IMG/VR virus record: IMGVR_UViG_2737471817_000007
Coordinates: 1 to 42,368 of that record
Reading direction: 5' to 3' (one strand)
DNA: 42,368 nucleotides
From: a virus
Lineage: Duplodnaviria > Heunggongvirae > Uroviricota > Caudoviricetes
Part shown: one piece after another, positions 3,681 to 29,091 of the stretch
Position numbering within the stretch: the stretch's first letter is position 1
How the letters are laid out: the number at the start of each line of letters is the position of its first letter
Notes under the pieces: generated by a model
Database searches by the model: none
Seen by the model: the letters and a program-made list of their open reading frames with translations, nothing else
Told to the model about the DNA's origin: nothing
Made by a program: the position numbers and the translations under genes

Positions 3681-4550
<870 letters not shown>

Positions 4551-15227: not shown

Positions 15228-15583
15228 TACTGGTAATCCCCTTCTTCACCGTGGAACTCAAGATCGACCGTGCCTTCTTCGGCATTATGGTTCGCTTCGC
15301 CGTGCAGCCAGGCAGACGACAGTACATAGACCTGACCGTTCGCCAGCTCGGCAGTGATGGTCATCTCATCAGACGAGGTGATTTTGCTCACCGGAAAATT
15401 CTTCGGCACCTTGAAGGTCCCTTTGACATAAGGCGCACGGTGAGTTTCCTTGCGGTCCACTGAACCGTCCAGGCCGATGATGTCATCATTGACCGTCCTG
15501 TTCATGGGCACCTCAATGCCGCCGGTCAGCGATAGCTGCTGACCGTCAATTTTGAAATAACAGGTTCCCCCGATACGGGCCAT
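15227..15583 (-). CDS. Tail tube protein (Mu-type)
   Basis: 118 aa immediately downstream of the sheath gene. Confidence 0.6.
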   Translation of the reverse strand: MARIGGTCYFKIDGQQLSLTGGIEVPMNRTVNDDIIGLDGSVDRKETHRAPYVKGTFKVPKNFPVSKITSSDEMTITAELANGQVYVLSSAWLHGEANHNAEEGTVDLEFHGEEGDYQ

Positions 15584-17079
15584 TATGCGGACTCCTCTGA
15601 ATACTGAAGACGGAACTGGTTAACCACGGCAAAGACACGCAACTGGTTAACATAGTCAGGCGGGAACAGCGTGTTCAGGCGGTTCGGATCGCTGGCATCA
15701 CGCTCCACAACCAGGTACTGCTTAAACAGTTCGTAGTTTTCCACGATCCCCGCACGCTCAAGCTGACGGTAGGTTGCCAGCAGTTCCCCTTTGATCACCG
15801 CCGGGGTGACAATCGCCTGACCGGGACCAAAGCGGGTACCGTCACTGGCAAGCTTGTGACGCCCGTACTTACTGGTAATGACAGATTTCAGTTTGCGCAG
15901 TACATACGCGCTGGTATGCAGAGTCTCACTGTCTAGGTAGCTGTTATCCGCAACCCCGTAAGCGTTTTTCCTGTACGTGGTGACATCACGCTGAATGCGC
16001 AGTACCCCGCTTTCGACATACGCCGTTGCCACGCCATGAGACAGCAGGGTCTGTTGTTCGGTCATCGTGAACCGTTTCCCCTTCGGCGCAGGCAGCATAC
16101 CCACCAGCTCACCGGTCTGCGTGGGACGTGCCGGATCGTTGCGAATAAACACCGCTGCGCGGGCGGTACGGCTTGCCGCCAGTTCGTCGGCAGGCGTCTG
16201 GGTCTCTTTTTCGTACCCCGCCAGGGTAATGTGCTGCTGATTAAACTGGTCACCTGCGGTCACCAGTTCTGACAGCGTGCCGATCTTTGCCGTATACACA
16301 TGACCATACAGCTGACGCGCATAGCTCCAGCGACCGCTGGTATCGTTCATCTCGGTCACCAGCGTGTTAACGGAGGCCGTGTCGTTGAACGGCAGGCCGA
16401 TATAATCAAACGGCTCATCCGCCATTGCAGCCACCGCGCCGGTGAGAACCGGAGCACCCGTACCGGCGGTACCCGTCGCCACGGCAATCTGTACGCCCGC
16501 TGGCAGCACTTCGCCCCCACCAAAGCCGTAGTAATTGAGGCTGACAGGAATTTCATTCCCGCAAAGCCCCTTATGACGCGCGGTCAGTGTGACCACGCCT
16601 GCCGAAGATGAAGCCGTAAACGGCAGGGCCGGAACGGCATTGATGGCATCTTTGATACTGCTGGCAATCGTCGTGACGTTATCGCCGTTGGTCACCGGTG
16701 CCTGCACGCGGGTACGTCCCACATAAACATTCACCGTGCCGGTTTCGGTTGCCGCCCCGGTCACCGTCAGCGTAACCGTTGCCGCCGCGCCTGTGGCTTC
16801 CGGAACGGCAATCACATACAGCTCACCAAACGGGTCGGTCTGGCGATAAGCCTCGACCATACGCGCCAGCTGACTTCCCGCACCACAAATCTGGCGGGCA
16901 TAGTCTGCCGACGGCATCAGCACCAGACTGTTGGCAACAATCTCTGCACCGTTATTGGCATGACCAATCAGCAGCGATGCTCCGCTGTCCTGTGCAGTAT
17001 TCGCCGCCTGGTTATCCATTTCCGCATAAAACAGCGGAACCAGCGTATTCGACGGAATGGTGTTAAAGCTTATCGTCAT
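15583..17079 (-). CDS. Contractile tail sheath protein
   Basis: 498 aa; size, position and composition typical of Mu/P2-type sheath. Confidence 0.75.
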   Translation of the reverse strand: MTISFNTIPSNTLVPLFYAEMDNQAANTAQDSGASLLIGHANNGAEIVANSLVLMPSADYARQICGAGSQLARMVEAYRQTDPFGELYVIAVPEATGAAATVTLTVTGAATETGTVNVYVGRTRVQAPVTNGDNVTTIASSIKDAINAVPALPFTASSSAGVVTLTARHKGLCGNEIPVSLNYYGFGGGEVLPAGVQIAVATGTAGTGAPVLTGAVAAMADEPFDYIGLPFNDTASVNTLVTEMNDTSGRWSYARQLYGHVYTAKIGTLSELVTAGDQFNQQHITLAGYEKETQTPADELAASRTARAAVFIRNDPARPTQTGELVGMLPAPKGKRFTMTEQQTLLSHGVATAYVESGVLRIQRDVTTYRKNAYGVADNSYLDSETLHTSAYVLRKLKSVITSKYGRHKLASDGTRFGPGQAIVTPAVIKGELLATYRQLERAGIVENYELFKQYLVVERDASDPNRLNTLFPPDYVNQLRVFAVVNQFRLQYSEESA

Positions 17080-25310: not shown

Positions 25311-25514
25311 CTAATCGTCGAGTTGCAATACACCGTGCTCAAGTGACTCTGAGTAAGCGATCAGCCCTGTGTATTCAGGGATAATCTCGCCATCATCCGC
25401 TTCGAATTCCGGGATTGTACCAGTGGTGATGGTGTATTGGGGCTGACCATCTTCTTTCGCGAATGCTGCTAGGTCTTCAATCTGCTTAGCTGTAAGAACT
25501 ACTGTCATGCTCAT
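25311..25514 (-). CDS. Hypothetical acidic small protein
   Basis: 67-aa ORF with GAGG Shine-Dalgarno. Confidence 0.35.
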   Translation of the reverse strand: MSMTVVLTAKQIEDLAAFAKEDGQPQYTITTGTIPEFEADDGEIIPEYTGLIAYSESLEHGVLQLDD

Positions 25515-25572: not shown

Positions 25573-25848
25573 TCAGGTGTGGGTCCAAATGAATTTAACA
25601 ATCCCAATAATGCTAGCCAGAACGCCAAAACCAAAAATAAATTGACCACATACCCCTATGATTCCCGATGCAATGGCACCGGCATTTGTCTGAGCATTTT
25701 CGTTTATGCTCGCCCCCACTAGATACATAATCAAACCAACTATGAGAGATGCGATAATCCAATGTTCCACTGCTAATACAATTACAATGCTCAAAATATC
25801 TGCTAAACCATCACTATGACCACTCACTGCATATCCTTGCTTTGACAT
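25573..25848 (-). CDS. Small multi-pass membrane protein (moron candidate)
   Basis: 91 aa with 2-3 predicted transmembrane helices; AT-rich; followed by its own terminator. Confidence 0.45.
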   Translation of the reverse strand: MSKQGYAVSGHSDGLADILSIVIVLAVEHWIIASLIVGLIMYLVGASINENAQTNAGAIASGIIGVCGQFIFGFGVLASIIGIVKFIWTHT

Positions 25849-25914: not shown

Positions 25915-26451
25915 TCAATTGTGGGGGATAGCGTTATTTGACTCTCTCAACGAGTCGTAAATACGTTCACACGTCATCCCGGCGGTGTAGCGTTCGTCAG
26001 CGATTCCAGCATAACGTTTAGCTTCTGCTGCAATATCTCCGAGCATGTCGGCGAACATTCCGGCGTCGGCGTCGGTTGTTTTGCTTCGGACGGCAGCGGC
26101 AAGATCAGCGGTGTGCTTTGCGGCGTCCAGGCGTGCGGCAAGCTTTGTTGCTTCGGTACGCAACTGGCTAACAGTGGCAGACAGGCCAGCAGCAGTGGCA
26201 GCAGATTTAGCGGCTTGTGCTTGTGCATCTTTTACAGCCTCATCACGGGCAATTATGCGCCCTTGTTCAATCCAGCGTGCGGCAGTCTGCGCGTTCGCTT
26301 CCTGTGAAGATTCCATGCTATTGTGGTCAGCCCACTTCTTTTGCCAGCCCCGCTCACTCCAGATGTTCCCGACAAGAAATGCACCAGCCAACATCAGCAA
26401 AACAATGATTGTTTTCCACCGCGCCTGAACAAAAGCAAAGACCGCTGTCAT
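25915..26451 (-). CDS. Rz-like i-spanin
   Basis: 178 aa; N-terminal transmembrane helix then Ala/Gln-rich coiled coil; follows the endolysin. Confidence 0.65.
25974..26228 (-). CDS. Rz1-like o-spanin lipoprotein embedded in Rz
   Basis: Out-of-frame ORF inside Rz; signal peptide with LLASC lipobox, proline-rich mature part. Confidence 0.55.
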
Positions 26452-27065
26452 ACCAGCAACGCCGCCCGCGCTTTGTTATAACGACTATTTCTGTCAGCCA
26501 GTCCATTCTGGCCACCGTTGATGATCTGCGTTACACGGACAACATCACCTGAATACATCAGACAACCACGTAATGTGAAATACCATGCAGCAGAACGGGC
26601 TGCATGTTTCTCCTGTGTCAGCAACTCTGGTGTGCTGATCAGATCCAACTTCAGCGCCGCACCGCATTTGGCGTAGTTCTCGCGGCCGGTGATTTGAAGC
26701 AGGCCACGACCGCGATATTTCCAGCCGTCACCCTGGCTGTTATTCCCCATGCGGTCACCATAAACCAGATTGGCTATTTGCGGCTGGTGGGCTACCTGCT
26801 TACCATCGACACGCCCCAGCATTTCACACTGATAAGGCGTCAGGCGTTTACTAAAGGTTTTCTTCAGCCCGTCTACCGAGTAGTTGAAGCTTTCCACCAG
26901 CGAGGTAAAACCAGCAGATTCATGCCCAACTTGTGCAATGAACATGGCCTGATCGTTAACTGCTGTGATTCCAAACTCTTTCATTGCAGCATCAATGTGC
27001 GGAAACCAGCGTGCAGCCAGCCCGGCGCTAATACCAGCCGCCTTTTGAAATAATTGTTGGTTCAT
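26448..27065 (-). CDS. Endolysin, glycoside hydrolase family 19 (chitinase-like)
   Basis: 205 aa with [10 protein letters not shown] and [13 protein letters not shown] motifs. Confidence 0.7.
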
Positions 27066-27346
27066 TAGTGCCTCAGATGATCAACCAGACGTGCAACGTT
27101 GCCTCTTACGGCCACCAGCACGGAAAGAAAAATAGTGTTCGCCACGATAATGGGCCATGAGGAATGGGGATAAATCCCACAGAGATAGGCCAACGGAACA
27201 GCACTGTATGTAACAGTAATCAGCCAGGCTAAACGTGAAACCCAAGGACGATGCCGCGAATCACCACGACGATAAAACATCAGAGTAATAACAACACAAG
27301 CACATAACAGCGCATTTATAGTTGCTGTCGGGTCATTTAGCTCCAC
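27065..27346 (-). CDS. Holin/antiholin-like membrane protein
   Basis: 93 aa, hydrophobic, between holin and endolysin. Confidence 0.5.
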   Translation of the reverse strand: MELNDPTATINALLCACVVITLMFYRRGDSRHRPWVSRLAWLITVTYSAVPLAYLCGIYPHSSWPIIVANTIFLSVLVAVRGNVARLVDHLRH

Positions 27347-27719
27347 CTGAACCTCCCCGGCGCGTTATGAGCGCCACCAGCGAGCCGATATCCTGATTAT
27401 TCAGGAACGTCAGGATTTTAACGGCTAAAGCAGAGACGATTACGGCACCAATAGCATCCAGAGGTTTATCACTGTATCCGGTCAAGTGCGCCAGCTTGGA
27501 GCCAACCAACCCAGAGCAAAGGATCCCGGCAATATACGACACGATAAAATATGCCAGTCGGCGCGATGCGCTCAGATCCGCTGCTGTTGCTATGTAGAAT
27601 ACAGCCCCTGCAAATGCGCCAAATACAACGCCGTAATCAGTTCCGGTCAGCAGTCCATAAACACTGGCACCCGTCAGGGCACCACCAGCCAGCCCAGTAC
27701 CGGAAATCGGATCGGACAT
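27333..27719 (-). CDS. Holin
   Basis: 128 aa, Gly/Ala-rich transmembrane segments, first gene of the lysis cassette. Confidence 0.55.
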   Translation of the reverse strand: MSDPISGTGLAGGALTGASVYGLLTGTDYGVVFGAFAGAVFYIATAADLSASRRLAYFIVSYIAGILCSGLVGSKLAHLTGYSDKPLDAIGAVIVSALAVKILTFLNNQDIGSLVALITRRGGSGGAK

Positions 27720-27775
27720 TTAGCCCCCTCTTAATTGCTGTTGGTCCTCTCAGAACGAGGGGAAACAAAAAAGGC

Positions 27776-27799
27776 CGCATTAAGGCGGCCTTGGTAAGG
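27776..27799 (-). terminator. Intrinsic terminator downstream of the 27810-28406 moron
   Basis: ggccgc-attaag-gcggcc stem followed by U6 on the minus strand. Confidence 0.6.
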
Positions 27800-27809
27800 T
27801 ATAGTTTTT

Positions 27810-28406
27810 TTAAGATAAACTTTGATTGATATACTCATGACACCCAAAAATAAAGGCGTTTTGTGCATCAATAAATGACTTTTTTTCTTCCGGAGTAAAA
27901 TACCCTTTTGTAAAACATACTTTTAGCGCTTTTTGAAGATCTGCCGTCAGGGTTATCAACTTACAACCTTCCTCATCAGGCCTTATTAATAGAAGTAATT
28001 TATTTTTACTTATTTCAGCGGCCTTTATTGGAACTTGAATCTCCTCAGGGAAAACACCCTTAGCCAATATATCCATATTCTTATTTCCGACCAGATGCCA
28101 TTGCTCAAATGTGCTGGCCAACATAATTACGTCTGTCACATGCTCAGCGCCAGCAAAACGTATTTGTTGCGCCAATTCTTTATTAGTATTCAAGTGAGCC
28201 TGTAATGTGGCTAAGGCAAAATTTTCTTTGATTGCCCTGTATGCAACCCAACCAGTTATTCCTGCGGCAATAACGCCTGCAAGAGCAGTAATGAGTGTTT
28301 CAAAAGGAAAGGAAGAACTGATTTCAATTGGCGGTAATTTTTCTATTACCAAGGTCAACTCGCCAGTAGTTTTTTCGAAAGCGTACGGTACGTTTTGCCA
28401 AGTCAT
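27810..28406 (-). CDS. Low-GC moron protein of unknown function with one internal hydrophobic helix, between Q and the lysis cassette
   Basis: 198 aa; AGGAGG Shine-Dalgarno; terminators on both sides; AT-rich relative to backbone. Confidence 0.6.
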   Translation of the reverse strand: MTWQNVPYAFEKTTGELTLVIEKLPPIEISSSFPFETLITALAGVIAAGITGWVAYRAIKENFALATLQAHLNTNKELAQQIRFAGAEHVTDVIMLASTFEQWHLVGNKNMDILAKGVFPEEIQVPIKAAEISKNKLLLLIRPDEEGCKLITLTADLQKALKVCFTKGYFTPEEKKSFIDAQNAFIFGCHEYINQSLS

Positions 28407-28436
28407 GAAGCCTCCTGAGTTTCAGAGGAATCATAA

Positions 28437-28460
28437 CAAAAAAACCCGCTCAATGGCGGG
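28437..28460 (-). terminator. tR'-like intrinsic terminator just downstream of the Q-like gene
   Basis: cccgc-cattga-gcggg stem followed by U7 on the minus strand. Confidence 0.55.
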
Positions 28461-28512
28461 CTCTTAATGTTGTGTTGCTCAGTTCGCTTTAACGTCCCGA
28501 GCCTACCACAAT

Positions 28513-29091
28513 TTAAGCACTTTCTTGCTCACTCTGCAACTTAAATCTGTCGCTATTTGTGCCGAATGCGTCACAAACTGGAGCGTACAGGATCGATTCT
28601 GCAAGACTTAGCCAAGTGTCAATGCGTCGACGACAGGTGATCAGCGGCCAGTCAGGATGTTTAGCCTGCAGTTCATTGGCCATCTGCAACTTGCTCTTAC
28701 GAAGACGATACCGGTCAACAATCACGCTATAGAGCGATCGGTAGTCATCATTCATCAGTACTGAAGCAATGACACCGTCCACTAACAACCCTTCTTCATC
28801 TGAACAGAACGCCAGGCCGCTTTTATTTTTGCTGTTGAGAATTTCACGCAGGTACGCTTCAAGTTCAGGCTTGGTGATACCCGCTATCTTCATCCGGCGT
28901 AGCGCTTCATTGATAGCTGTCTTGGTGATTTTCCCGGATGCCAGAAGCTGGTTAAACATGTTTCCACCACTACCACCGCCGATATAAGACCAGCGGCCCC
29001 ACATGCGCAACTTGCCTTGTATCCAGATACTTTCCAGAGTACGAAGGCGAACCATTTCACCTGATTTGCCAACTTCAGAAGGATTAATCAT
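28513..29091 (-). CDS. Late-gene antiterminator Q-like protein
   Basis: 192 aa immediately upstream of a terminator and the lysis genes; no clear motif match, call rests on position. Confidence 0.45.
   Translation of the reverse strand: MINPSEVGKSGEMVRLRTLESIWIQGKLRMWGRWSYIGGGSGGNMFNQLLASGKITKTAINEALRRMKIAGITKPELEAYLREILNSKNKSGLAFCSDEEGLLVDGVIASVLMNDDYRSLYSVIVDRYRLRKSKLQMANELQAKHPDWPLITCRRRIDTWLSLAESILYAPVCDAFGTNSDRFKLQSEQESA

What the first reader, a model, noticed from the sequence alone, without database searches (positions are those of the whole stretch)
27776..28460. Moron in the Q-to-holin position, bracketed by two intrinsic terminators
The 198-aa AT-rich gene sits exactly where lambdoid phages carry cargo such as stx, downstream of the Q-like gene and a tR'-like terminator and upstream of the holin. 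It has a strong Shine-Dalgarno and its own downstream terminator. The protein has one internal hydrophobic helix and no recognisable motif. Its placement suggests Q-dependent expression on induction plus possible basal expression in the lysogen.
Basis: partly seen in the sequence, partly recalled or inferred. Interest (0 to 1): 0.7.

Follow-up and report, generated by a model that had tools for sequence, protein, structure and literature searches.

The report
Prophage cargo gene between Q and holin
This is a real, self-contained accessory gene cassette in an E. coli prophage, sitting just after the late-gene activator Q; it encodes a membrane-anchored protein from a small family of unknown function, so it is an ordinary kind of phage cargo that happens to be very consistently placed.

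Summary
A 198-codon AT-rich gene (27810-28406, GC 0.38 against 0.51 in the flanks) lies between a DUF1133-type Q gene with its tR'-like terminator T1 (28438-28465) and the holin (27333-27719). It is followed by its own terminator T2 (27763-27792).

Relatives fix the cassette borders at about 28438 and 27765. The same Q module and the same holin module occur elsewhere with unrelated AT-rich cargo in this slot. Only 32 of 5426 complete E. coli genomes carry this cassette.

It recurs in most divergent homologues, so the cassette fits the textbook moron layout.

The protein belongs to PHROG 18859, a small Enterobacterales family with no annotated function. It is predicted to have one transmembrane helix (residues 37-55), probably with the N-terminus outside, and a four-helix bundle. 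It is under purifying selection.

In 14 of the 16 independent contexts examined the family gene directly follows Q, across four Pfam families of Q and several holin types. That argues against a holin-specific lysis regulator.

Function is unknown. My best guess is membrane-level protection against other phages, held at low confidence. I rate this a new member of a known kind, of moderate interest.

The parts
28513..29091 (-). Q-type late antiterminator gene (DUF1133 family, 192 aa)
   Evidence: Matches PF06576 at 3e-92 and PF06530 at 2e-8, and PHROG 753 'anti-termination protein Q-like'. Where this gene travels with ORF198 it stays 97-100% identical even though the flanking genes differ.
28511..28539 (-). 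Candidate late promoter pR' (TTGCAG, 17 nt spacer, TGcTTAAAT) overlapping the Q stop codon; inferred only
   Evidence: The motif and the following roughly 50-nt leader are conserved among DUF1133-type Q modules whatever cargo follows (alignment). The simple promoter scan did not pick it up.
28438..28465 (-). Intrinsic terminator T1 (tR'-like): stem CCCGC/GCGGG, loop CATTGA, 7 T
   Evidence: -12.2 kcal/mol. It is shared with Q modules that carry other cargo (FAM21845, Klebsiella phage 1 LV-2017), and homology ends at its T-run. A T1-like terminator with the identical core stem-loop also follows a PF03589-type Q in L066.
28430..28438 (-). Extended -10 promoter-like motif TGTTATGAT (TG 28437-28438, hexamer TATGAT 28430-28435); predicted transcription start near 28422-28423
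   Evidence: This is the only match in the 42-kb window. The same motif lies 29-41 nt upstream of the ATG in 11 of 15 independent homologue contexts, with consensus-keeping variants TATTAT, TAAAAT and TATCAT. It is also present in phage LLS and as TGTTAATAT in L066. It is absent from the same Q module when that module carries other cargo.
28411..28416 (-). Shine-Dalgarno AGGAGG, 4 nt before the ATG
   Evidence: It is conserved in the orthologues.
27810..28406 (-). 198-aa gene. Predicted layout: acidic N-terminal tail (residues 1-36), one transmembrane helix (37-55), and a C-terminal four-helix bundle (about 60-197). PHROG 18859.
   Evidence: the family. One search gives the AF2 model, pLDDT 82. 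One search gives the transmembrane helix and the charge bias. One search shows purifying selection. Searches give the fold matches.
27763..27792 (-). Intrinsic terminator T2: stem AAGGCCGC/GCGGCCTT, loop CTTAAT, T-run
   Evidence: -14.0 kcal/mol. Homology with holin modules that lack this gene starts at 27764, right after its T-run.
27333..27719 (-). First holin gene (Phage_holin_8), which starts the lysis cassette. It is followed by holin_3_7 (27065-27346), a GH19 endolysin (26448-27065) and an Rz-like spanin (25915-26451).

Best explanation
**What it is.** A self-contained moron cassette at window ~28438-27765, minus strand. It consists of an extended -10 promoter, a Shine-Dalgarno site, a 198-codon gene and terminator T2. 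It sits exactly between the tR'-type terminator of a DUF1133-type Q module and the 5' UTR of the holin.

**Predicted expression (inferred).**
- In the lysogen, the cassette's own promoter would make a short monocistronic mRNA of about 650 nt.
- T2 would stop that transcript before the lethal lysis genes.
- After induction, Q-modified RNA polymerase starting at pR' would read through T1, the gene and T2, making this the first late protein.

**The protein.**
- It is predicted to be a single-pass inner-membrane protein.
- Its conserved acidic tail of about 35 aa probably faces the periplasm, and the helical bundle probably lies in the cytoplasm.
- The conserved core is the tail, the transmembrane helix and the juxtamembrane helix. 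This points to an interaction in or at the membrane.

**Most likely role (hypothesis only).** Prophage-encoded protection of the lysogen or the induced cell against other phages at the membrane step, by superinfection exclusion or a membrane-linked abortive mechanism.

**My confidence in each part.**
- Cassette architecture and membrane protein: about 0.85.
- Own promoter: about 0.6.
- Defence or exclusion function: about 0.3.
For: **Cassette borders**
- Q-module homology ends at the T1 T-run in relatives that carry other cargo.
- Holin-module homology begins at 27764 in about 200 E. coli genomes that lack the gene.

**Composition:** GC 0.38 in the gene against 0.51 in the flanks. Homologues show the same contrast, 0.30-0.40 against 0.46-0.53.

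**Promoter motif:** TGnTA...T lies at a fixed distance from the ATG in 11 of 15 contexts plus LLS and L066. One of these is a degraded prophage remnant (L058) that has lost T1 but keeps TGCTAAAAT and an intact gene.

**Terminators:** they flank most homologues.

**Real gene:** pN 0.13-0.17 against pS 0.77-0.88.

**Topology:** across 34 family members the 15 residues before the transmembrane helix hold 33 K/R and 67 D/E. The 15 residues after it hold 95 K/R and 34 D/E.

**Fold:** the AF2 model has pLDDT 82. The transmembrane helix runs on into a four-helix bundle.

**Conservation:** it is concentrated in residues 1-72, where the mean fraction of the commonest residue is 0.51, against 0.28 for residues 73-198.

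**Position:** the gene sits directly after Q in 14 of 16 independent contexts, with Q of PF06576, PF06323, PF06530 and PF03589. In 1 of those 14 (P0033) the upstream 200-aa gene after NinG matches no Q family and is only presumed to be Q.

**The slot holds accessory cargo:** methyltransferases, a DNA pol III theta homologue, an Endonuclease_NS gene, a TerB-like gene and UspF.
Against: - No expression, localisation or phenotype data exist. Promoter, topology and function are all inferred.
- The promoter has no recognisable -35 element. The generic promoter scan missed it, and one match per 42 kb is what chance predicts. Only the positional conservation supports it.
- Four of the 15 contexts lack the motif.
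- There is no similarity to any known exclusion or defence protein: PADLOC found nothing, and hhalign against P22 SieA and HK97 gp15 gave probability below 1%.
- tblastn of this protein found nothing in 50,697 deposited phage genomes. Only one isolated phage, LLS, carries a distant homologue.
Confidence: 0.45

Rival explanations
1. Lysis-timing regulator, either antiholin-like or a membrane sensor in the manner of T4 RI. It would be made together with the holins and would modulate when the membrane is permeabilised.
For: - It is a membrane-anchored protein at the head of the late operon and lies immediately upstream of two holin genes in this window.
- Its four-helix bundle resembles membrane-proximal sensor domains in which helix 1 continues from a transmembrane helix.
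- Its transmembrane segment is conserved.
Against: - The conserved adjacency is to Q, not to the holin. Other cargo separates the gene from the holin in L046, L049, L056 and phage LLS.
- Homologues sit with at least four different holin types: holin_8 plus holin_3_7, holin_2_1/2_3, holin_3_1, a pinholin, and holin-position genes with no Pfam match.
- About 200 E. coli prophages with the same holins lack the gene.
- An intact copy with a promoter-like motif persists in a degraded prophage remnant that has no lysis genes.
- It matches no holin or antiholin family.
Confidence: 0.12
2. A purely Q-dependent late gene that is silent in the lysogen. The TGnTATGAT motif is not an active promoter, and the protein acts only during lytic growth, for example by excluding secondary infection or altering the membrane before lysis.
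For: - The gene lies behind a strong terminator, with only 31 nt between the T-run and the ATG and no -35 element.
- An upstream terminator about 35-44 nt before the ATG is itself a conserved feature of the family.
- The gene is always the first one reached after Q.
Against: - The motif keeps the key -10 positions through substitutions. It also survives where the upstream terminator is gone (L058) and where the upstream gene is not Q (L060).
- A terminator after the gene is most useful if transcription starts within the cassette.
- The gene is retained in a cryptic remnant.
Confidence: 0.2
3. A lysogenic-conversion factor that acts on host physiology (envelope stress, colonisation, metabolism) rather than on phages.
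For: - It has the moron layout.
- The slot is known to carry such cargo. Stx genes in Stx phages are an example from established knowledge; UspF and a TerB-like gene are seen in relatives here.
- It occurs in strains from many hosts and environments.
Against: - It has no signal peptide and no similarity to any known virulence or stress family.
- It is rare (32 of 5426 genomes) and is not tied to any pathotype in the listed hosts.
- Its strict association with the position after Q suggests a phage-centred role.
Confidence: 0.1
4. It is not a functional unit: a decaying or spurious ORF in an AT-rich spacer between two terminators.
For: A frameshifted allele (224 aa, cluster P0002) exists in some E. 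coli.
Against: - It is full-length and conserved across Escherichia, Enterobacter, Salmonella, Citrobacter, Pantoea, Pectobacterium and Providencia.
- pN is far below pS.
- The start codon, Shine-Dalgarno site and N-terminus are conserved.
- The AF2 fold is confident.
Confidence: 0.02

Closest known systems
HK97 gp15 moron (superinfection-exclusion gene inserted among the tail genes of phage HK97)
   Same: Both are single small genes with their own terminator, inserted into the late operon of a lambdoid phage. The HK97 record annotates gp15 as 'moron product' with flanking putative terminators. From the literature (PMC3594210), gp15 is an inner-membrane superinfection-exclusion protein expressed from the prophage.
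   Different: There is no sequence relationship (hhalign probability 0.9%). gp15 is 62 aa against 198 aa here. The slot differs: between tail genes in HK97, after Q here. Function is demonstrated for gp15 and unknown for this gene.
Cargo in the Q-to-S slot of lambdoid phages (stx in Stx phages such as 933W; tRNAs; nmpC/lc porin genes) - comparison from established knowledge
   Same: Same genomic slot, downstream of Q/pR'/tR' and upstream of the holin. Expression is boosted by Q antitermination on induction. The slot varies between otherwise related phages.
   Different: The cargo is unrelated. This cassette is a single membrane-protein gene with its own extended -10-like promoter and terminator. 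Its family keeps this slot across four Pfam families of Q.
P22 SieA (inner-membrane superinfection-exclusion protein; PMC10883804)
   Same: Both are prophage-encoded inner-membrane proteins of similar size (164 aa against 198 aa), encoded in a late-region moron with its own promoter.
   Different: There is no homology (hhalign probability 0.15%). The location and orientation in the genome differ. Exclusion is shown for SieA and only hypothesised here.
Four-helix-bundle sensor domains of histidine kinases and chemoreceptors (McpN, Adeh_2942, TorS, NarQ, Tsr/Tar ligand-binding domains)
   Different: Sequence identity is 4-14%. There is no second transmembrane helix and no output domain. The charge bias places the bundle in the cytoplasm, not the periplasm. 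Generic bundles such as talin and catenin score almost as high, so this is fold resemblance only.
T4 RI antiholin
   Same: Both are membrane-tethered proteins encoded by a phage and made during lytic growth.
   Different: There is no sequence match to any lysis family. This gene does not co-vary with the holin type and is absent from most phages that have the same holins. The comparison with RI itself rests on my own knowledge and was not tested.

Membership tests
Moron (independent accessory transcription unit inserted in a phage operon) | Present at a site where closely related phages lack it or carry something else | tested here: met
   The same Q allele with T1 carries a different cargo in FAM21845, and a related DUF1133 Q module (76% protein identity) with T1 carries yet another in Klebsiella phage 1 LV-2017. 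The same holin module occurs in about 235 E. coli genomes, of which only 32 hold this gene.
Moron (independent accessory transcription unit inserted in a phage operon) | Own promoter | tested here: inconclusive
   The extended -10-like motif TGnTATGAT at 28430-28438 is positionally conserved in 11 of 15 contexts plus LLS and L066. There is no -35 element, no expression data, and a single window match is what chance predicts.
Moron (independent accessory transcription unit inserted in a phage operon) | Own terminator | tested here: met
   T2 at 27763-27792, -14 kcal/mol. Downstream terminators are present in most homologue contexts.
Moron (independent accessory transcription unit inserted in a phage operon) | Base composition differs from the surrounding phage genes | tested here: met
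   GC 0.38 against 0.51 here; 0.30-0.40 against 0.46-0.53 in homologue contexts.
Moron (independent accessory transcription unit inserted in a phage operon) | Expressed from the repressed prophage | not testable with these tools
   This needs RNA-seq, 5'-RACE or protein detection in an uninduced lysogen.
Q-dependent late-operon gene of a lambdoid phage | Lies downstream of, and on the same strand as, a Q gene followed by a promoter-proximal terminator, ahead of the lysis and morphogenesis genes | tested here: met
   The order is Q (PF06576/PF06530), T1, this gene, T2, holins, endolysin, spanin, terminase.
Q-dependent late-operon gene of a lambdoid phage | Transcription requires Q antitermination | not testable with these tools
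   Inferred from position only.
Holin / antiholin lysis regulators | Sequence membership in a holin or antiholin family | tested here: not met
   No such hit in Pfam, PHROGs or NCBIfam; PHROG 18859 has no annotated function.
Holin / antiholin lysis regulators | Co-inherited with a particular holin | tested here: not met
   Homologues sit with at least four different holin types and are sometimes separated from the holin by other cargo. Most prophages with the same holins lack the gene.
Holin / antiholin lysis regulators | Alters lysis timing | not testable with these tools
   Needs deletion and lysis-curve experiments.
Superinfection-exclusion proteins (P22 SieA, HK97 gp15 type) | Inner-membrane protein | tested here: met
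   Prediction only: a single hydrophobic helix in all 34 members, and an AF2 transmembrane helix.
Superinfection-exclusion proteins (P22 SieA, HK97 gp15 type) | Homology to a characterised exclusion protein | tested here: not met
   hhalign probability 0.15% against SieA and 0.9% against gp15.
Superinfection-exclusion proteins (P22 SieA, HK97 gp15 type) | Blocks DNA entry of superinfecting phages | not testable with these tools
   Needs plating, adsorption and DNA-entry assays.
Known anti-phage defence systems (PADLOC-DB 2.0) | Match to a defence protein model | tested here: not met
   No hits for this protein. Across the 34 family members there were only scattered weak hits, best E-value 5e-4 in 2 members.
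Four-helix-bundle (4HB_MCP-type) sensor domains | Four-helix up-down bundle continuing from a transmembrane helix | tested here: met
Four-helix-bundle (4HB_MCP-type) sensor domains | Periplasmic location between two transmembrane helices, coupled to a cytoplasmic output domain | tested here: not met
   There is only one transmembrane helix and the protein ends with the bundle. The charge bias places the bundle in the cytoplasm. No Pfam 4HB_MCP hit.

The most novel reading that the evidence does not exclude
PHROG 18859 could be a previously unrecognised class of lambdoid-prophage membrane protein that is functionally tied to the head of the late operon. It would be transcribed both from a promoter fused to the tR' terminator and by Q antitermination. 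It would act either as a new membrane-level superinfection-exclusion or abortive-infection factor, or as a lysis checkpoint that does not depend on the holin type. Its conserved N-terminal tail and transmembrane core would bind a conserved host or phage membrane component. Its near-invariable place as the first gene after Q, across four Pfam families of Q, would then reflect function rather than insertion history.
Probability: 0.2. Interest if true: 0.6.

Novelty: new member of a known kind. Interest (0 to 1): 0.4.

Why it matters
**Why the slot matters.** The Q-to-holin slot is where lambdoid prophages carry high-impact cargo such as Shiga toxin, so a catalogue of what else sits there, and how it is expressed, is useful.

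**What this case adds.**
- Its borders are precisely mapped.
- It has a compact terminator / extended -10 junction that would allow low expression in the lysogen and high expression on induction.
- Its protein family keeps the same place behind four different Pfam families of Q across Enterobacterales.

**If the protein does exclude phages or act on the membrane,** it would add a new family to prophage-encoded defences. A distant homologue in an isolated K-12 coliphage (LLS) makes this directly testable. If the protein does nothing measurable, this remains a routine moron of unknown function.

Tried and rejected
- **Nucleoside 2-deoxyribosyltransferase / TIR-like lead.** A PDB profile search gave only E about 1.7 for residues 90-154. 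I dropped it once the confident AF2 model proved all-helical.
- **First AF2 run.** With 10 close sequences it gave pLDDT 41 and was unusable. Only the 34-sequence alignment gave a confident model.
- **Family libraries.** Pfam, NCBIfam and PADLOC gave nothing meaningful for this protein or for the 34 family members.
- **Rfam.** Only sub-threshold attenuator-leader matches were found; they simply reflect the two terminators.
- **Phage genomes.** tblastn of this protein against 50,697 phage genomes found no match.
- **Literature.** Searches for the accession, and for cargo or defence hotspots between Q and the holin, found nothing on this family. The Tai systems lie upstream of the packaging module, which is a different slot.
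- **Co-variation of the variable C-terminal domain.** It tracks neither the Q family nor the holin family. The 73% orthologues sit behind a different Q, and copies that are 99-100% identical sit in front of holins that are only 65% identical.
- **Loci search.** The search for related loci with the divergent alignment failed because it had no conserved stretch.
Full report
**1. What is there**

All features lie on the minus strand of the window. Reading 5' to 3' on that strand:

- a DUF968/HNH gene (29900-29106);
- a Q-type antiterminator of the DUF1133 family (29091-28513; PF06576 at 3e-92, PF06530 at 2e-8, PHROG 753 'anti-termination protein Q-like');
- intrinsic terminator T1 (core stem CCCGC/GCGGG at 28460-28445, seven T at 28444-28438);
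- a Shine-Dalgarno AGGAGG (28416-28411);
- a 198-codon ORF (28406-27810);
- intrinsic terminator T2 (stem 27792-27771 plus a T-run);
- the lysis cassette: Phage_holin_8 (27719-27333), Phage_holin_3_7 (27346-27065), a GH19 endolysin (27065-26448) and a DUF2514 Rz-like spanin (26451-25915).

The ORF is AT-rich, at GC 0.38 against 0.51 in its flanks. The window is an E. coli prophage integrated at tRNA-Thr(CGU) next to proA. It has an HK97-type head module and a contractile tail.

**2. It is a real gene in a small, uncharacterised family**

- The protein matches PHROG 18859 (function unknown) end to end at 7e-91.
- It has no significant match in Pfam, NCBIfam or PADLOC.
- The word-indexed search of 5.8 billion proteins found only 11 clusters, from E. 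coli and Enterobacter, at 70-99% identity.
- An exhaustive HMMER scan of 1.84 billion representatives found only 36 clusters at 50% identity, nearly all 190-232 aa apart from a few fragments.
- All 34 aligned members hit PHROG 18859 and nothing else of note.
- Named members come from Escherichia, Enterobacter, Salmonella, Citrobacter, Pantoea, Pectobacterium and Providencia. Every one is annotated 'hypothetical protein'.
- Against the 70-76% identical orthologues, synonymous sites are saturated (pS 0.77-0.88) while pN is 0.13-0.17. The protein is therefore under purifying selection.

**3. The protein**

*Membrane anchor and topology.*
- Every family member has one strongly hydrophobic segment (residues 37-55 here) and no second one.
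- Across the 34 members, the 15 residues before the helix hold 33 K/R and 67 D/E. The 15 residues after it hold 95 K/R and 34 D/E.
- By the positive-inside rule, the acidic N-terminal tail of about 35 aa faces the periplasm and the C-terminal domain lies in the cytoplasm. This is an inference.

*Fold.*
- AF2 with 10 close sequences failed, at pLDDT 41.
- With the 34-sequence alignment it gave pLDDT 82. The transmembrane helix runs on into a long helix (35-106). Three further helices (121-140, 145-167, 172-197) pack against it as a four-helix bundle. Residues 1-31 are modelled with low confidence.
- Generic bundles such as talin and catenin score nearly as well. There is no second transmembrane helix and no output domain. 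I treat this as fold resemblance only.
- Those sensor domains are periplasmic, which is a caution against the charge-based topology.

*Conservation.* It is concentrated in residues 1-10 and 23-72, that is the tail, the transmembrane helix and the juxtamembrane helix. The mean fraction of the commonest residue is 0.51 for residues 1-72 against 0.28 for residues 73-198. The functional core is therefore at the membrane.

**4. Cassette borders and moron status**

*Left border.*
- The DUF1133 Q module, with a conserved promoter-like stretch overlapping the Q stop codon and with T1, is shared by relatives that carry different cargo: E. coli FAM21845 (249 aa) and Klebsiella phage 1 LV-2017 (TerB-like).
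- It is also shared by a prophage carrying a homologue only 28% identical (L041).
- Similarity stops at the T1 T-run.

*Right border.*
- The holin module occurs in about 235 E. coli genomes.
- In those lacking the gene, similarity begins at window 27764-27755, right after the T2 T-run.

*Alternative cargo and frequency.*
- The other occupants of the slot are unrelated to this family (HMM E > 0.1). All but the Klebsiella TerB-like gene (GC 0.51) are AT-rich, at GC 0.33-0.44.
- Only 32 of 5426 complete E. coli genomes carry this cassette.
- Within E. coli it is tightly linked to this Q allele. About 34 genomes have the allele at 90% identity or more, and at least one of them (FAM21845) carries other cargo.
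- Q and the gene travel together at 97-100% identity, while the neighbouring DUF968 and holin genes drop to about 65-70%.

**5.

- Directly after the T1 T-run lies TGTTATGAT (28438-28430). This is an extended -10 motif (TGn plus TATGAT) and the only match in the window.
- On its own that is not significant, since 1.5 matches are expected by chance.
- The same element sits 29-41 nt upstream of the ATG in 11 of 15 independent homologue contexts. The variants keep the critical positions: TATGAT, TATTAT, TAAAAT, TATCAT. It also occurs in phage LLS and as TGTTAATAT in L066.
- It persists in L058, a degraded prophage remnant that has lost the upstream terminator. It also persists in L060, where the upstream gene is a methyltransferase.
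- It is absent from the same Q module when that module carries other cargo.
- The predicted transcription start (about 28422-28423) would leave a leader of roughly 17 nt holding the Shine-Dalgarno site.

I therefore read the cassette as promoter, Shine-Dalgarno site, gene and terminator, which is the classic moron layout. T2 would serve to stop cassette-initiated transcripts before the lysis genes. This is sequence inference and no expression data were available.

**6.

I examined 16 independent contexts. In 14 of them the family gene is the first gene downstream of Q.

| Q family | Contexts |
|---|---|
| PF06576 (DUF1133) | window, P0019, P0045 |
| PF06323 | P0012, P0022, a fragment in P0025 |
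| PF06530 | P0035, P0013 |
| PF03589 | the 73% orthologues, P0044, P0073 |
| no Pfam match; 200-aa gene after NinG, presumed Q | P0033 |
| annotated in the record as putative antitermination protein Q; I did not scan it | isolated coliphage LLS |

- The two exceptions are P0040, where the upstream gene is a methyltransferase, and P0020, whose short contig shows no upstream gene.
- Where further cargo is present (MT-A70 or Dam methylases, a DNA pol III theta homologue, an Endonuclease_NS gene), it lies after this gene and before the holin.
- The holins and endolysins differ widely among these contexts.
- The terminator-gene-terminator arrangement and the low GC are also conserved.
- The core stem-loop of T1 (CCCGC, CATTGA loop, GCGGG) is identical behind a DUF1133 Q (this window) and a PF03589 Q (L066). 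This suggests the terminator acts as a module junction for recombination.

**7. What it most likely does**

*Inferred with reasonable support.*
- It is a membrane-anchored accessory protein.
- It would be made at a low level from its own promoter in the lysogen.
- It would be made strongly as the first late protein once Q-modified polymerase reads through T1 and T2.

*Hypothesis.* It protects the lysogen or the induced cell against other phages at the membrane, by superinfection exclusion or a membrane-linked abortive mechanism. The reasons are indirect:
- characterised inner-membrane morons in lambdoid late regions (HK97 gp15, P22 SieA) do this (PMC3594210, PMC10883804);
- the conserved part of the protein is the membrane core;
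- an intact, promoter-bearing copy survives in a decayed prophage remnant.

*Against.* There is no homology to SieA, gp15 or any PADLOC model, and there is no phenotype.

*The main rival* is a lysis-timing regulator. It is weakened because:
- the conserved neighbour is Q and not the holin;
- the family occurs with many holin types;
- about 200 prophages with the same holins lack the gene.

**8. Comparison with known systems, and novelty**

This is a new member of a known kind: a moron in the well-known variable slot between Q and the holin, encoding a protein of an uncharacterised family. Four points go beyond the routine:
- the near-invariable position as first gene after Q across four Pfam families of Q;
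- the compact, conserved junction of terminator and extended -10 motif;
- the small size of the family (36 clusters at 50% identity among 1.84 billion representatives);
- an isolated K-12 phage (LLS) that carries a distant homologue, which makes experiments straightforward.

**Scores:** interest 0.4. The most novel reading that the evidence does not exclude is a new membrane-level exclusion or lysis-checkpoint family functionally tied to the head of the late operon. I give it a probability of about 0.2, and an interest of about 0.6 if true.

Noticed in passing
window 25573-25848 (-), with 25311-25514 (-): A second AT-rich stretch (GC 0.38-0.41) lies between the spanin and the HNH/terminase genes. 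It holds a 91-aa ORF with several hydrophobic segments and a 67-aa acidic ORF. Neither has a Pfam match. It looks like another moron-type insertion, after the lysis cassette.
   Followed up: partly
window 25974-26228 (-): An 84-aa ORF is embedded in a different frame inside the Rz-like gene (25915-26451). It has a lipobox-like LLASC motif, which is the typical embedded Rz1 (o-spanin) arrangement.
   Followed up: no
L051:3217-3966 (E. coli FAM21845) and L054:1694-2479 (E. coli KSC64): The alternative cargo in the same slot is a pair of related 249/261-aa AT-rich proteins with no Pfam or PADLOC hit. They share a conserved R-x4-H stretch (VRDSSHHIEDR / VRNSTQHLEDR) that is reminiscent of HEPN nuclease motifs. 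This is a possible defence gene in the same slot.
   Followed up: partly
L063:3469-4103 (Escherichia phage LLS, PQ299149, genes 49 and 50): The family homologue in this isolated coliphage is annotated as two overlapping ORFs. The conserved N-terminus (MWQGIPF...) shows that the true start is an ATG at about L063:3498. It is preceded by the same terminator, TGTTATGAT motif and Shine-Dalgarno arrangement.
   Followed up: yes
protein cluster P0002 (224 aa; e.g. E. coli UPEC-245U, hit H57): A frameshifted allele of the gene (16 member sequences on 31 contigs) changes frame near residue 175 and reads on past the normal stop, into or through T2. This shows occasional decay of the gene.
   Followed up: partly
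L005:6600-6700: Downstream of the 74%-identical orthologue there is a fossil of the holin_8 5' UTR and start region (...TTTCCCCTCATTCTAAGAGGAC...GCTAAAAGTCCGATCC, with the ATG mutated), although the present holin there is a different gene. The cassette seems to have moved together with a piece of a holin_8-type module.
   Followed up: partly
window 28445-28460 versus L066:~4445-4470: The core T1 stem-loop (CCCGC, CATTGA loop, GCGGG, then a T-run) is identical behind a DUF1133-type Q (window) and a PF03589-type Q (L066). Terminators at this junction may act as shared linker sequences for modular recombination.
   Followed up: partly
window 1-24300 versus L001 (E. coli D10): The same early, Q, cargo and holin region, at the same thrW/proA integration site, is joined to different virion modules. 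The window has an HK97-type terminase/portal/capsid and a contractile tail (sheath at 15583-17079). Strain D10 has lambda-like siphovirus tail genes (G/T, tape measure, J). This is a clear mosaic.
   Followed up: partly
L066:7640-7921: The prophage carrying the 230-aa family member P0073 also encodes, after its lysis cassette, a small protein with a precomputed hit to the Acb2/Tad1 hairpin family (anti-defence sponge).
   Followed up: no
window 27765-27855 and 28436-28516 (-): Rfam gives sub-threshold matches to the Trp and Phe attenuator leaders (28 and 22 bits for Trp_leader against a gathering score of 41). They are explained by the two terminator hairpins and are not real leaders.
   Followed up: yes
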